This document shows, piece by piece, positions 24,001 to 63,053 of a DNA stretch of 64,000 nt. Source of the stretch: Perna viridis (Eukaryota); assembly GCA_037379345.1 (NCBI GenBank), contig CM074520.1:18331488-18395487 (forward strand), read 5' to 3'. Each line of letters begins with the position of its first letter. Position 1 is the first letter of the stretch. The position numbers were made by a program.

Positions 24001-27000
24001 CTCTGATATGTCATTAGATTGACGGGTAAAATGATTATGGATGTTAACCCGCGCGTCTGGTACAAGGGTACTAAAATATTCGGGTGTGCCACCATTTATC
24101 ATCTTATAAAACATCACAAGCTTGTGCTTTCGCCTGCTATCCGCGAGCTTTTCCCATCCGGTTTCTCGATATAGGCTGTCTAACGATGTTAATTTTGTAC
24201 CACCAGTTACGATACGCACTGCTTCTATATGAACAGCTTCGATCTTGTTAATCAAAATCTGTAACCCGTTGTCCCAAACTACATCTCCGTATTCTAGAAA
24301 AGGTCTGATAAATGACAAGTACATCTTTTCCAAAGTAAAACGGTCGAGAACCAAACGTATACGCCGAAGTACATTGATCCTCGAATACGCCTTTTTAACA
24401 ATATAATCAATATGATCATGCCATGAACCATCGTCCGAAAAGTAAACCCCTAAATGCTTGTGATTGAAGACCTCTTGAAGATCGAAATTATTTAAAAGTC
24501 TCGTACCGACAAGTTCAGGGCCAGATGCCTTAACAGTATTAAGGTTTTTGAGTACCTCTTCTACCTCTGATTCAATAATAACGATTTCGGTAAGCTCGTT
24601 ATCACTAATGATAGGATTCGGGAAATGAGTCTTAGAGTCATTCAGTTCGGTTTGAAGAACAAACAATTCGTTAAATACGTCTGCTTTGGCCGTCTCATCG
24701 GTAATGGGACTACCATTTTTCAATAATGGTGGAATGCCAACTTGTCGTTGTTTCATACCAGATATTTGGTTGCATATATGCCACCATGACTTCGTAGATG
24801 GATAGATTTGTTTCAACTTGTGTACAAGTTGATTTTGATAGCTATGTTGGGCATTCTGCACTTGTAAGGTTACTAAATTCCGTACACGTCTGAATTTTGC
24901 CCAGTCGATTGCGTTATCTGTACGTCGCGCTTTAGACTGCAAGCGTCTCTTTTTTTACGGATAGGTCTCCTTAAATCGTTCGTCAGCCATCTCGGATCCG
25001 ACTTCCGAATCGTCGCCAGTTTATTTGGAATCGACTCGCCAGCCGAACCCAAGATGAAATTTGAAAAAAAAACTATTTGGTCAATATCGTCCGACAGGAA
25101 TACGCGGTTCCAGTTAGTATCCGACAATAACTGCCTGTATTAATCATAATCACCTCTGTCATACAATCAAATTTTACGCCTGAATGAACAATGGGTTGGT
25201 TTTGGCGAATTACGTATCCCAATAATGGGACAGTGACATCTAATCTGGTCTAATAAAGGAGGACCCGTCCCAGTATAAGGCACAAAATCTATGCTACTAG
25301 TGACAATTAAATCAATGACAGACGATGAGTTTTCAGTAAAATTTGTGGGATCATTAATCATTTGCTCTAAGCTGTATGTAGTACAAATATGATTCATTCT
25401 CGGATTGGGATTTTCCTGGTTATCATTAAAATCACCAGTTAATATGACATAGTCACAAGAGACGTCATTGACGGCTGATTCCACAGAATGTTCTATTTTA
25501 CTCCATACCTCGTTACTACCATGAGGCGGAACGTGAAGAATCCCATATAAAACTATTTTGTTACGGATCCTTAACTGGATCCATATAACCTCAAGGTCTG
25601 GTAACTAAATCAGAGCGCCTGACGGCGTTAATGTTGTCCTTGACATACATTATAACCCCACCCCTCTTCTGTTTCCTTCCCAGTCTCTACGGAATGGTTT
25701 TTGATAATAAGTTCTGCGGACTCATCCGTCAGATTGTTTTAACCATGTTTCTGTAAAAGACAATATGTCAAACTCACTGTATTCTGCTAATATAATATCT
25801 AATTTGAGTAATAAACTCAGTACATTCAAATGTAGAAACGACACTGAGTCGGATAATAATTCATAAATGTGTGAAAACTCGAAGTATCGCTATCAGATAT
25901 GGAAATACAATCCCCAGATTCGCTATCATGACCAAAAGGACCTAGATTGAATTCCAACCCAGACATAAGAAGCGACATCTCTATCATCAATAACAGAAGA
26001 ACTGTTATAACAATATAACATGAACGAACTTTTGGATAAAAAAAACATTTCTCATTTTGCACAGAATTAATATGATTATGGCTCAATTTTGAAAGTAACA
26101 ATAACACGAATATCATAGGCAAAGAGCGCAAAAAGATTAATACATGTCACATCTTATAATAATGTGAACGTTTAGTCCTTGCTCTTGGAGGTTTTGATGT
26201 ATTGGAATCATCCCACTGTTGATGCTTCTGTATTTTTTAAAAAAATTTTTCCCGATCCGAACAATTCGATGAGAGCAAATTATGCATGAAATTTGCATAT
26301 TATTCTCTGCGTCAGAATTTTTCTACCGGTGATACTTAAGAATGTTTAAGTGTTGTCTTAAAATCAAGCCCAGCTGTTGTTGTTATTGTTGTTGATTTTT
26401 TGTTTTGTTTTGTTTATAAATATATATTTATATAAAACGTCCCACAATGTGACGACTCTATTTGCTACACTGCTCCATCGGATCAAATTGATACAGGGAA
26501 GATATATAAACGTATAGAAAGGTCTGAAAAATTCCCAACGATGTTAGAACGACCAAAAAATTTGCATCGCAAATTTGACAGTTCTAACATCGTTGGGAAT
26601 TTTTCAGAACTTTCTATACGTTTATATATATCTTCCCTGTATCAATTTGATCCGATGGAGCAGTGTAGCAAATAGAGTCGTCACATTCTGAGACGTTTGT
26701 ATAATATTGATTTGTTGTGACATGCATCATTAATTTGATCCTCTATCCTATATATTAACATCTAAATGAACTGTCCCGTACTACCATACATCGTGTACTA
26801 AGTTATAGCCCTAGGTTAAGGTTACAGATCACCAATTCAACCAATGAGCATTTGGAACGTACGCAAAAATAGTCCTACGCAGAAATTACCCCTGTTCCTC
26901 ATAGTGCTGTGAAAAAAGTTTTCATCTTATTTAAAAAATTTAAACAGTTTCTGAAAGGAAAAACATTTCTGTACATTTTATAGGTGCATTTTGCTTCTTG

Positions 27001-60200: not shown

Positions 60201-63053
60201 AACTTGATTCATGTACAAGTATATGTTTGGCGCCAAATCATGCATATAAAGTTTCGTCAAATTCGTTGGGCGGTTGAGCAGGAGCCGCGTTTACCAAGAT
60301 GGATGGACGAACTGAACTGCAAAAAAGCAAAGCAGATACCACTCAAACTTATTGGGGATGGCATAGAAGAGATAGTTACATAAGCTAAAATCAGACTAAA
60401 ACACGTAAATGGTTCCCTTCGAAGTTAAGCAGGTCCAAATTCGCGGTAATGACATTCCCATAAGTAACATACAGAAGGAATCTTTTGAACGACCTTTCGT
60501 ATCGTCTGTTGTAAATTAAGTCTACCGAAGTAATTATAAGCTTTTACCCTAATTTTTGAAGCCGACTCGGAGCTAAAGAGTACTTTAACGGTAAAGATAC
60601 AATTTACAAAATGATATAAGGAGAATTAAAATGGTGACAACAACTCCACCGGGATGAAGAATGCCGCCATATTTGGAATTATTTTCCGATTAATGTGTAA
60701 TCTCACGCATTCATGCATGGCAATGACAATAATAAGTATTGGCATAAAATTATCGCTTATCATTACTCCTGCAACGAAAAAGGATGAAATACCATTCTCC
60801 TTTACAAGTCCGAAAATGGTCTTTGAATGCCAAGCTAACAGCTCTTGCATTGCTGGAAAACGCTTTTCATAAGGCCACGTCAACTCCATTGCTTTGTATC
60901 TTCATCCGCTACAGGAAATTTACGATACTATCTGCGTCGCGAACGAATACAAAAATACAACAGGTCTAAGGGAGATAAGTAAGTTTTTTAAAAAATATTT
61001 TCACAGTCGTCGCCGAGTTGTCTACCGTACTTTGACAATCTCTTACACTCGCACCTTTCTTTCTTTTATATATCATGTTGTTTTTTATCATATTGTTTTA
61101 TGTCATAAATAAAAAGACTACCAGTGAAAGCGAAAGAAGATATGTAGTATTTTACTCCGGGTAACATGAAAAGACTGAATACTTAACCGGTTTTCTTCCG
61201 CAGTTTTTTTCTATCCCACAGAAACGGTCCACTAGTCGCAACTTCGGCTGAATCCGTACCTTCGAAGAGTAGCGGAGTCAACCGAGGTTCAACGATTGAG
61301 AAGCGGTCCATTTTATTAGTATTAACCTGATCAAAATTTTTAAGTCAAATCTGATCGACGTAGCCACCAAGAGCTGTCACCCATCTCACCTGACTTAGAG
61401 TTTACCATTTAGTCAAGCCCTCAGGCTAAGGCGCATTTGTTCAAATGACGACTCCGTCAAAAACGTCTAGGTAAACTAAAGAACAATTTAACAAGAAGAG
61501 GATATAGATACAAGACCATAAAAGAAGGGTTCCTCCGAAAAAAATCATAATATCTCAAGAGGTAGCCTGTTACAATACAAGGCAAAGAAAAAGTGTAAAG
61601 TTCTAACATACCACCCTTGCATTAAAACAGTTACAATATCATTCTTGAGCACTGGGCATCTGTCGAGAAAACTCCACACTAACCAAATGCAGTCTTTCCC
61701 GAACTATCTATGATTGCTTTCAGACAGCCAGACAGTTTGCGTAGTCTGCTTGTGAGGGCTGAAATATCTAAGCCCTACTCCTGGCAAGAGTCGCTCCTGT
61801 GGTGACAAAAGGTGTAAATGTTGCAAACAAATGCACCACTCGTCATCATTCACCCGCACGGTCACGGGGAAACGCTACGAAATATTGATGTTGGTGAATC
61901 TAATAAGCTTTTTCACAAGAGCTTGAACGGGTACAGGAGAGACCTAACAAAAAAGCCTTCACTCCCTTCGAGTCAACACTTCAGAATACCAAACCACTGT
62001 CTCGATGATTTCCACAAAATGCAAATTCTAATCTTGGAACAAAACACGATCTGGAGCGGTACAGAAATTGAAGCGGGGGTTGGATAAAAGAACTCCGTGT
62101 TTTACATCCACACAGCTTTAATAAAAAAAAAACATTGACATCTTCCTTTCTTTGTACAGTTTCTTATCATCACAGTATTCGTAAATATTTTTAGTTTTAC
62201 ATTTTCACACAATGTTCAAGATCAGCGCAAAACGTGTATCTCTATATTACAATATTCAAGATCTTTGTTAACTGTCGATAAAATTTTAAGTACCAGTCCA
62301 CATAAAATTCAGACGTTGTCAATGATAAAGTGATTCATGGTGTAGAAAAACCCATCAAACAAATGATGCTTTTTCAGTCTACATATGCTATATTTTCACA
62401 TAAAGATAATTATTTCTGTATTCAAATCTGCACTTTTGAGAAAATCATACATTTATCTCCCACCGAAACCAACCAAATCTAACAAAGTAAAGAACGATAA
62501 CTCTTACAAAGGGCCAATTTCATGTACAATCTATATATTTTTTATCTCAAAAGCACAACAACCAAATTAAAAACTAAAACTTGTTATGTGATCAGTAACT
62601 GTTTCTAAACAAGAAATAAAATTGAATTCGGTGGGTTTTTGACAAGCATGAATCACCTCCTGTCTGATTTTTATAAAGACTGATACTTAATACGTCATAT
62701 GTATTCACCTGATTAGGTAGCGAGTTGTTCACAGATCATTTACCTTCCTACACACTCAGTTTTTAATACACAGAAGAAGGTAATTAGTTGACCGAAAGGT
62801 CTGAAAAATTCCCAACGATGTTAGAACTGTCAAATTTGCAAAGCGAATTTTGGTCGTTCCCTTCGCGGGACTCGAACTCGTACCGCTGTGACATCTGTGG
62901 CAACACCCACTGCACGAAGTCCAGCGCCCTAGACCAGCTATGCTGGCTGGTCGAGTGGTCTAGGGCCCTTTTTTAAGAAACCCCTTTTGATTTGGTTAGT
63001 TGATAAAATGGCCAAAACATAAGGCAACGAAATAAACAAAACAAAAACCATGT

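What the first reader, a model, noticed from the sequence alone, without database searches (positions are those of the whole stretch)
26431..62966. tRNA-headed SINE that inserts like a Penelope element: candidate PLE-mobilised SINE system
Seen: four loci of one family (26431-26703, 27322-27490, 56906-57187, 62794-62966). Three carry an inverted piece of the element fused at the 5' side. 3' ends fall at two positions (CAGACCTTT or TCACATTCTGAGACG), mostly running into (TA)-rich sequence. There is no poly(A) tail and I see no TSD. Known: LINE-mobilised SINEs usually have a fixed 3' end and rarely invert, whereas Penelope-like elements often leave inverted 5'-truncated segments and variable ends, and some favour microsatellites. 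PLE relics are present in this window. Inference: a Pol III SINE parasitising a Penelope-like RT/GIY-YIG machinery, a pairing I do not know as well described.
Basis: partly seen in the sequence, partly recalled or inferred. Interest (0 to 1): 0.75.

Follow-up and report, generated by a model that had tools for sequence, protein, structure and literature searches.

The report
tRNA-headed SINE with inverted front pieces
A short tRNA-derived mobile element occurs four times here, three times with a flipped piece of itself at its front and mostly ending in TA repeats, which resembles Penelope-type rather than LINE-type insertion but cannot be proven from four copies.

Summary
The four loci are one family (blastn, nhmmer), and the window holds no further copies. 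Two copies carry Pol III A and B boxes, but no tRNA model matches.

Three of four copies have a head-to-head inverted piece at the 5' side. Three of five element 3' ends abut alternating TA runs of 8 nt or more, against a background of 0.0064 per site. There is no poly(A) and no convincing TSD.

None of 407 ORFs of 48 aa or more matches GIY-YIG, and both RT-bearing relics are APE-type LINEs. Their 3' ends do not match the SINE.

Published PLE traits fit: (TA)n targeting by Naiads, obscured TSDs, inverted 5' copies and self-priming palindromes. By comparison, 1 of 5936 germline human Alu insertions is inverted.

Against a PLE partner: no tandem pLTR in any copy, and one inverted piece looks like T-run/A-run twin priming. 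PLE mobilisation is the best reading, at about 0.4.

The parts
26434..26550 (-). c1 left arm: inverted 5'-truncated copy (equivalent to c3 57053-57164), own 3' end GGGACGTTTT facing outward into TA-rich sequence 26417-26433
26547..26698 (+). c1 right arm: 5'-truncated copy (equivalent to c3 57020-57164) ending GAGACGTTT. The junction with the left arm shares 4 nt (GAAC, 26547-26550) and sits at the element's own imperfect hairpin
27320..27476 (+). c2: head with A box (27329-27339) and B box (27396-27405) plus core, ending CAGACCTTT. No inverted piece
27476..27491 (.). (AT)8 run abutting the c2 3' end
56905..56932 (-). c3 inverted piece: T7 followed by the reverse complement of c3 57007-57031 (end of tRNA-like head, CCA and A-run)
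56932..57164 (+). c3: full-length long form. A box 56940-56950, B box 57002-57011, intrinsic hairpin 57020-57056, T5 57072-57076, short-form end equivalent 57085, 3' module 57086-57164
57165..57203 (.). (TA)11 then TG-rich compound microsatellite abutting the c3 3' end
62794..62941 (-). c4: head (A box disrupted by an 8-nt gap) plus core to CAGACCTTTC. No TA run. 62763-62793 may be a diverged continuation into the 3' module
62942..62968 (+). c4 inverted head piece (equivalent to c3 56934-56960) forming a near-palindrome with the c4 5' end

Best explanation
A tRNA-derived, Pol III-type SINE family with two 3' forms. It is copied into the genome by target-primed reverse transcription at TA-rich sites.

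Shown:
- The family, the A/B boxes, head-to-head inverted 5' pieces in 3 of 4 copies, TA runs at 3 of 5 element 3' ends, no poly(A), and no clear TSD.

Inferred mechanism:
- A U/A-rich stretch of the RNA anneals to a nicked (TA)n target and primes cDNA. The stretch is either the terminal ...GACGU + U/A-rich one or the internal UAUACGUUUAUAUAU, which gives the two end positions.
- A second, opposing DNA strand then arises. It comes either from self-priming of the cDNA or from priming on the other target strand.
- In c1 the junction lies at the element's own hairpin. In c4 there is a near-palindrome at the extreme 5' end.
- The two 3' ends are joined by 2-4 nt of microhomology, leaving a head-to-head piece.

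Inferred partner:
- A (TA)n-targeting Penelope-like element of the Naiad type supplies RT and GIY-YIG EN in trans.
For: Family and boxes.

Inverted pieces and junctions. The GAAC microhomology lies at the intrinsic hairpin in c1. The c1 arms are 97.3% alike, against 94-95% to c3.

TA association. 3 of 5 ends have runs of 8 nt or more against a background of 0.0064. 2 of the 4 TA runs of 15 nt or more in the window abut SINE ends.

Internal TA-rich stretch at the short-form end and its likeness to the long end: (6/500 shuffles for c1R, but 41/500 for c3).

Neither LINE 3' end in the window matches the SINE.

Published PLE traits (passages only):
- Naiads prefer (TA)n, TSDs are often not discernible, an inverted 5'-truncated copy lies at the 5' end, bivalve genomes are dominated by Naiads, and non-autonomous PLE partners exist.
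- Self-priming, palindromes at head-to-head junctions, AT-rich simple targets, and terminal repeats sufficient in trans.

Benchmark for LINE-driven SINEs: 1 of 5936 germline and 1 of 130 somatic Alu insertions are 5'-inverted.
Against: - Only four copies.
- No PLE protein relic in the window (0 of 407 ORFs).
- No direct partial tandem (pLTR), the most typical PLE hallmark, in 0 of 4 copies.
- Only c1 has the canonical PLE form, an inverted copy with its own 3' end. The c3 and c4 pieces are 21-28 nt internal or 5' fragments.
- In c3 the inverted piece starts at the element's A-run next to a T7 run in the flank. That is what LINE-type twin priming predicts.
- c4 has no TA at either side.
- In c3 the TA run is on the 3' side only, so it may be a tail or a later microsatellite rather than a target.
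- A conserved internal T5 (57072-57076) would be a Pol III terminator upstream of both observed ends.
- No hammerhead ribozyme, although Naiads lack it too.
- The 3' part shows no unusual fold (z +0.67 and +0.80).
Confidence: 0.4

Rival explanations
1. The same SINE is mobilised by a LINE that is not in the window. The partner would be a stringent LINE with a microsatellite-like tail or a (TA)n-specific one. Because (TA)n is self-complementary, both nicked target strands can prime on a U/A-rich RNA end. Twin priming and template jumps then give the inverted pieces.
For: - LINEs are the only RT sources seen in the window. LINE-B ends in a microsatellite-type (ATGA)4 tail.
- The c3 inverted piece begins at an internal A-run beside a flank T7, the classic twin-priming geometry (mechanism as described passages).
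- Microhomology joins are known for LINE 5' junctions (passage).
- SINEs are by definition LINE-dependent in current curation practice (passage).
Against: - No similarity between the SINE and either LINE 3' end in the window.
- No poly(A).
- 3 of 4 copies are inverted, against 0.02-0.8% for Alu.
- The inverted segments duplicate sequence that is also present in the direct copy. In c1 and c3 the duplicated stretch is long relative to the overlaps described for twin priming.
- I found no (TA)n-targeting LINE in the papers read.
Confidence: 0.3
2. The inverted pieces are not insertion signatures. They would be later DNA-level rearrangements, namely fold-back or template-switch replication errors at the element's own hairpin and at hairpin-prone (TA)n tracts. 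The TA runs would be microsatellites that grew from the element's TA-rich stretches.
For: - The c1 junction lies exactly at an intrinsic imperfect hairpin (pair I2).
- c2's TA run replaces the internal TATACGTTTATATAT.
- c3 has a compound (TA)n(TG)n tract typical of microsatellite growth.
Against: - Three independent rearrangements, all at the 5' boundary of a 150-260 nt element, are improbable.
- The c3 and c4 pieces sit precisely at the element's 5' end and are not at a hairpin or a TA tract.
- The c1 arms both keep complete 3' ends.
Confidence: 0.15
3. The family is not a retroposon. It would be a DNA transposon derivative (MITE or foldback) or a segmental duplicate.
For: - c1 is a 265-bp palindrome in AT-rich sequence.
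- Two pairs of copies lie close together: c1-c2 are 620 bp apart and c3-c4 are 5.6 kb apart.
Against: - c2, c3 and c4 have no terminal inverted repeats.
- Flanks are unrelated.
- A/B boxes and 5'/3' asymmetry fit a Pol III retroposon.
- No TA or other fixed TSD.
Confidence: 0.05

Closest known systems
Naiad-clade Penelope-like elements (Craig et al. 2021, PMC8557442; passages seen)
   Same: (TA)n at insertion sites, TSDs hard to see, an inverted 5'-truncated copy adjacent at the 5' end, no hammerhead ribozyme, and high copy number in some invertebrates.
   Different: Naiads are 3.4-4.4 kb and encode GIY-YIG EN plus RT. Here there is a 155-235 nt non-coding element with a Pol III head. No pLTR tandem is seen, and sequence identity with a Naiad 3' end is untested.
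Non-autonomous PLE partners: metazoan retrozymes and Chlamys MRC1
   Same: Short non-coding elements proposed to use PLE machinery in trans. [quoted passage not shown]
   Different: Retrozymes carry hammerhead ribozymes and are tandemly arranged. MRC1 forms pLTRs. This family has neither and instead has tRNA-type A/B boxes.
Schistosome Sm-alpha/Sj-alpha SINE-like elements (review passages)
   Same: Short, apparently Pol III-transcribed SINE-like retroposons in an invertebrate that also hosts PLEs.
   Different: They carry an active hammerhead ribozyme and occur in tandem repeats. None is detected here.
Classical tRNA-derived SINE with a LINE partner (e.g. Alu/L1 as benchmark; stringent SINE/LINE pairs recalled from general knowledge)
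   Same: 5' Pol III head, short body, dispersed copies, and subfamilies with different 3' modules.
   Different: No poly(A), no clear TSD, no match to the LINE tails present, and 3 of 4 copies with inverted 5' pieces.
L1 twin priming (Ostertag and Kazazian 2001, seen only as cited and described)
   Same: Two opposing cDNAs joined by microhomology. The c3 geometry (flank T-run beside the element's A-run) fits.
   Different: Twin priming inverts the upstream part of one RNA and comes with poly(A) and TSDs. Here the direct copy is complete (c3, c4), or both arms carry full 3' ends (c1).

Membership tests
tRNA-derived SINE | Internal Pol III A and B boxes in a 5' head | tested here: met
   Pattern TGGCNNAGTGG-N35-60-GTTCGANNCC: 2 matches (c2, c3) against 0 expected in 100 shuffles. 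The c4 A box is disrupted and c1 is 5'-truncated.
tRNA-derived SINE | Head recognisable as a tRNA (cloverleaf model) | tested here: not met
   ARAGORN finds 0 genes. No Rfam tRNA hit at gathering, at E<=1 on the window, or at E<=10 on 201 nt.
tRNA-derived SINE | Short, non-coding, dispersed multicopy element | tested here: met
   Four loci of 155-265 nt, with 88-96% identity between copies and unrelated flanks.
tRNA-derived SINE | 3' end shared with a partner LINE, or poly(A) | tested here: not met
   No poly(A). No match to the 3' ends of the two LINEs in the window. LINEs elsewhere in the genome are not testable.
tRNA-derived SINE | Target-site duplications | tested here: inconclusive
   Only weak candidates: 8 nt in c4 (24/300 shuffles) and 12 nt with a mismatch, low complexity, in c1.
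PLE-mobilised non-autonomous element | 3' end or pLTR sequence shared with an autonomous PLE of the same genome | not testable with these tools
   No eukaryotic genome or repeat library is available. The genome-contig scan returned 0.
PLE-mobilised non-autonomous element | Inverted 5'-truncated copy adjacent at the 5' end, with a palindromic head-to-head junction | tested here: met
   c1 shows the full form. c3 and c4 have short pieces only. In total 3 of 4 copies. The feature is as described.
PLE-mobilised non-autonomous element | Direct partial tandem (pseudo-LTR) | tested here: not met
   0 of 4 copies are followed or preceded directly by a same-strand partial copy. c1 right arm and c2 are co-oriented but 620 bp apart.
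PLE-mobilised non-autonomous element | Insertion bias for (TA)n or simple AT-rich sequence | tested here: inconclusive
   3 of 5 3' ends abut TA runs of 8 nt or more. The run lies on one side only in c3 and is absent in c4, so a target cannot be told from a tail.
PLE-mobilised non-autonomous element | 30-40 bp 'tail' extension at one end | tested here: inconclusive
   29 nt lie between the candidate TSD and the inverted piece in c4. A second CAGACCTTT lies 54 nt after c2 (45/1000 shuffles). Neither is compelling.
Metazoan retrozyme | Hammerhead ribozyme and tandem arrangement | tested here: not met
   No Rfam hammerhead family at E<=1. No tandem copies. Minimal PLE-type hammerheads may escape Rfam.
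L1-type twin-priming product | Inverted upstream segment plus direct 3' segment with poly(A) and TSD | tested here: not met
   Direct copies are complete or both arms carry 3' ends. No poly(A) and no clear TSD.

The most novel reading that the evidence does not exclude
This is the first Pol III, tRNA-box SINE family that rides on a Penelope-like (Naiad-type, GIY-YIG) retrotransposon instead of a LINE. It inherits that machinery's (TA)n targeting and its self-priming, head-to-head insertion products.
Probability: 0.4. Interest if true: 0.75.

Novelty: new variant of a known kind. Interest (0 to 1): 0.55.

Why it matters
SINEs are defined in practice as LINE-dependent (passage). The non-autonomous partners proposed for PLEs so far are ribozyme-bearing retrozymes and pLTR-forming elements.

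A tRNA-box SINE mobilised by a PLE would widen both definitions. It would give a short, countable reporter for the still undefined PLE integration cycle: self-priming, inverted junctions and microsatellite bias. It would also change how such repeats are classified in invertebrate genomes where Naiads are abundant.

If the partner turns out to be a LINE, the family is still a useful case of very frequent 5' inversion in a SINE.

Tried and rejected
- tRNA and ribozyme models. ARAGORN and Rfam at gathering and at permissive E gave no tRNA and no hammerhead. The weak mir-1277, mir-5880 and RT-6 hits are TA repeats or the c1 palindrome, and I rejected them.
- Protein relics of a PLE. Pfam on 10 large ORFs, then on 136 + 136 + 135 stop-to-stop ORFs, gave no GIY-YIG. 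ORFs under 48 aa (367 of 38-47 aa) were not scanned. C-terminal PLE fragments outside Pfam RVT_1 could escape.
- LINE partner. LINE-A and LINE-B were mapped with 5 of the 28 hits. Their 3' UTRs were compared with the window and showed no SINE match. The many (AAAAC)n tracts share no upstream sequence and are plain microsatellites.
- TSD searches gave nothing above shuffles.
- Second partial 3' end downstream of each copy: only c2 is borderline (45/1000); c3, c1 and c4 show nothing.
- RNA folding of c3 and its last 90 nt was no better than shuffles.
- More copies. An exact 28-mer scan of genome contigs (prokaryotic genomes, chance of host contamination) returned 0.
- Literature by sequence returned 0 papers.
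- Literature by terms. No paper in the listings describes a tRNA-headed SINE mobilised by a PLE. Most hits were seen as listing or abstract only. Repbase Reports, Dfam and supplementary files (closed, e.g. Craig et al. file S1) were not seen.
- PMC10294476 and PMC4209133 were searched for passages and held nothing on this point.
- Not checked.
- I do not take the window for human. Its LINE relatives include a Mytilus protein at 32% identity.
The bHLH exon (2131-2397) was only part of the local Pfam batch.

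
Full report
**What is there**

I read the four loci and searched each against the window. They form one family.
- Pairwise blastn identity is 88-91%, with E from 1e-47 to 1e-59.
- An nhmmer profile built from their alignment finds only these loci and their inverted pieces at E<1.
- A window self-comparison shows one other dispersed family (see below) and two satellite arrays.
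- The window has no N and is 34% G+C.

**Anatomy**

c3 (56932-57164, +) is the fullest copy. Its parts are:
- a head with an A box (56940-56950) and a B box (57002-57011);
- ...GGGAACGACCA followed by an A-run;
- a core that contains an imperfect hairpin (57020-57056);
- a conserved T5 (57072-57076);
- CAGACCTTT (to 57085);
- a 79-nt 3' module ending GAGACG (57164).

The other copies relate to c3 as follows.
- c2 (27320-27476, +) has head and core and stops at CAGACCTTT.
- c4 (62794-62941, -) does the same. Its flank shows a collinear 22-nt likeness to the module (5/300 shuffles), so its true end is uncertain.
- c1 (26434-26698) is a palindrome. Its right arm equals c3 57020-57164. Its left arm is the reverse complement of the stretch equal to c3 57053-57164.
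- The c1 arms are 110/113 identical, against 94-95% to c3.

The box pattern TGGCNNAGTGG-N35-60-GTTCGANNCC matches c2 and c3 only, with 0 expected by chance. No tRNA model recognises the head. 'tRNA-headed' therefore rests on the boxes. The likeness of the D-arm stretch to class II tRNAs is my recollection, not a test.

**The 5' pieces**

Three of four copies have a head-to-head piece.
- **c1.** The junction shares GAAC (26547-26550) and lies at the element's own hairpin (pair I2). Both arms keep complete 3' ends.
- **c3.** 56905-56932 is T7 followed by the reverse complement of 57007-57031. It matches its own copy at 24/25 and c4's variant at 25/25, with nhmmer E 1e-4. The single difference is at a CpG.
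- **c4.** 62942-62968 is a sense head fragment abutting the antisense copy. This gives the near-palindrome CCAGC-TAT-GCTGG. Statistical support is weak (E 7e-4; E 0.16).

All three can be described as two opposing DNA strands whose 3' ends met with 2-4 nt of microhomology. In c1 and c4 the geometry fits self-priming (snap-back). In c3 the flank T-run beside the element's A-run fits priming from the second target strand.

**The 3' ends**

There is no poly(A). After the element end, the longest alternating TA run within 25 nt is:
- 23 in c3;
- 15 in c2;
- 8 in the c1 left arm;
- 4 in the c1 right arm;
- 2 in c4.

The window-wide chance of a run of 8 nt or more is 0.0064. Two of the four TA runs of 15 nt or more in the window abut SINE ends.

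The short-form end coincides with an internal TATACGTTTATATAT of the long form. The long end (...GACGTTT plus T/A-rich) resembles that stretch (6/500 shuffles for c1R, but 41/500 for c3).

I infer that U/A-rich stretches of the RNA, terminal or internal, pair with a TA-rich nicked target. The data equally allow a templated U/A tail or later microsatellite growth.

TSDs are not demonstrable.

**Surroundings**

- Pfam scans of 407 stop-to-stop ORFs of 48 aa or more give no GIY-YIG.
- RVT_1 appears in three ORFs of one locus, and Exo_endo_phos in one ORF.

Two LINE relics account for these matches.
- **LINE-A** (minus strand, 26014 to 23568) aligns to 1187-aa proteins carrying APE EN and RT, with the RT core deleted. 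Of the 28 hits, 11 carry an APE domain and none carries GIY-YIG. Its 3' end is T/G-rich.
- **LINE-B** (about 34072-35890, +) has full-length relatives with APE EN (4 of 9 with APE, 0 with GIY-YIG). It ends in (ATGA)4.

Neither 3' region matches the SINE.

**Comparison with what is printed** (passages only unless stated)

- Craig et al. 2021 report the following for Naiad PLEs: (TA)n as preferred target; TSDs often not discernible; frequent inverted 5'-truncated copies at the 5' end; a 30-40 bp tail; no canonical hammerhead; tens of thousands of copies in oysters, clams and crabs; and non-autonomous Chlamys relatives.
- Arkhipova et al. 2013 infer self-priming from palindromes at head-to-head junctions. 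They note AT-rich simple targets and show that terminal repeats suffice for mobilisation in trans.
- Retrozymes are the proposed PLE-dependent 'new type of SINE'.
- For LINE-driven SINEs, a 2025 survey finds 5' inversion in 1 of 5936 germline Alu, 1 of 130 somatic Alu, and 18-22% of L1.
- My term searches listed no paper on a tRNA-box SINE paired with a PLE. This is not proof of absence, because Repbase Reports, Dfam and supplements were out of reach.

**Verdict**

The insertion style is unlike the Alu/L1 benchmark and like PLEs in three respects: head-to-head pieces, TA association and elusive TSDs.

It fails or leaves open other PLE features.
- There is no pLTR tandem in any of the 4 copies.
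- Only one copy has the canonical inverted-copy form.
- No PLE lies nearby.
- Identity of the 3' end with a PLE is untested.

I put PLE (Naiad-type) mobilisation at about 0.4. An unseen LINE partner with double priming on self-complementary (TA)n is about 0.3. Later DNA-level rearrangement is about 0.15, and a non-retroposon origin about 0.05.

If true, it is a new variant of known kinds (SINEs, and PLE-dependent non-autonomous elements). It is worth a genome-wide check, which is cheap and decisive.

Noticed in passing
window 33033-33267 (+) and 62285-62695 (-): A second dispersed family, 83-88% alike. The 33-kb copy lacks about 170 nt. Both copies start TTAAGTAT... and end ...GGTACTTAA, with imperfect terminal inverted repeats of about 17 nt. 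It looks like a TTAA-flanked (piggyBac-style) MITE. The 62-kb copy ends about 100 nt from c4.
   Followed up: partly
window 23568-26014 (-): LINE-A is an APE-EN plus RT LINE relic. It aligns to residues 89-598 and 865-1185 of 1187-aa relatives, so the RT core is deleted. Its 3' UTR runs into T/G-rich repeats. Its 5' end lies about 300 nt from c1.
   Followed up: yes
window 34072-35890 (+): LINE-B is a frameshifted RT relic of a different APE-type LINE family. It ends in (ATGA)4 at about 35868-35888.
   Followed up: yes
window 27468-27476 and 27531-27539: The c2 end motif CAGACCTTT recurs 54 nt downstream, after the TA-rich stretch (12-mer with one mismatch; 45/1000 shuffles). It could be chance, a tiny second partial copy, or a PLE-type tail.
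   Followed up: partly
window 57072-57076 and the same column in all five aligned sequences: An invariant T5 run sits inside the element, upstream of both observed 3' ends. It would be a Pol III terminator, so full-length RNA needs read-through or another polymerase.
   Followed up: no
window 18089-18557 and 18605-19365: Two adjacent satellite-like arrays: a 37-bp unit at about 67% matches, and 29/39/68-bp units built on ...TGTGAACAATTCACAAATCT... .
   Followed up: no
window 2131-2397 (+) and 9373-9807 (+): A bHLH exon (Pfam HLH, E 1e-11) reads like transcription factor AP-4 by my recollection. An acidic, serine-rich open frame may be a later exon of the same gene. Neither was joined nor sent to any sequence database search.
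   Followed up: no
window 23467-23501, 26380-26416, 30934-31005, 37138-37162, 44264-44333, 45207-45244, 45426-45474, 57837-57888: (AAAAC)n/(GTTTT)n microsatellites at eight sites. The sequences beside them are unrelated, so they are not tails of one element family.
   Followed up: yes
window 26699-27319: The 620-bp spacer separates c1's right arm from the co-oriented c2. It holds two approximately 30-nt direct repeats (TATAG[C/T]CCT...AGGTTAA[G/A]GTTA at about 26805 and 27165). I could not tell whether c1 and c2 form one composite unit.
   Followed up: no
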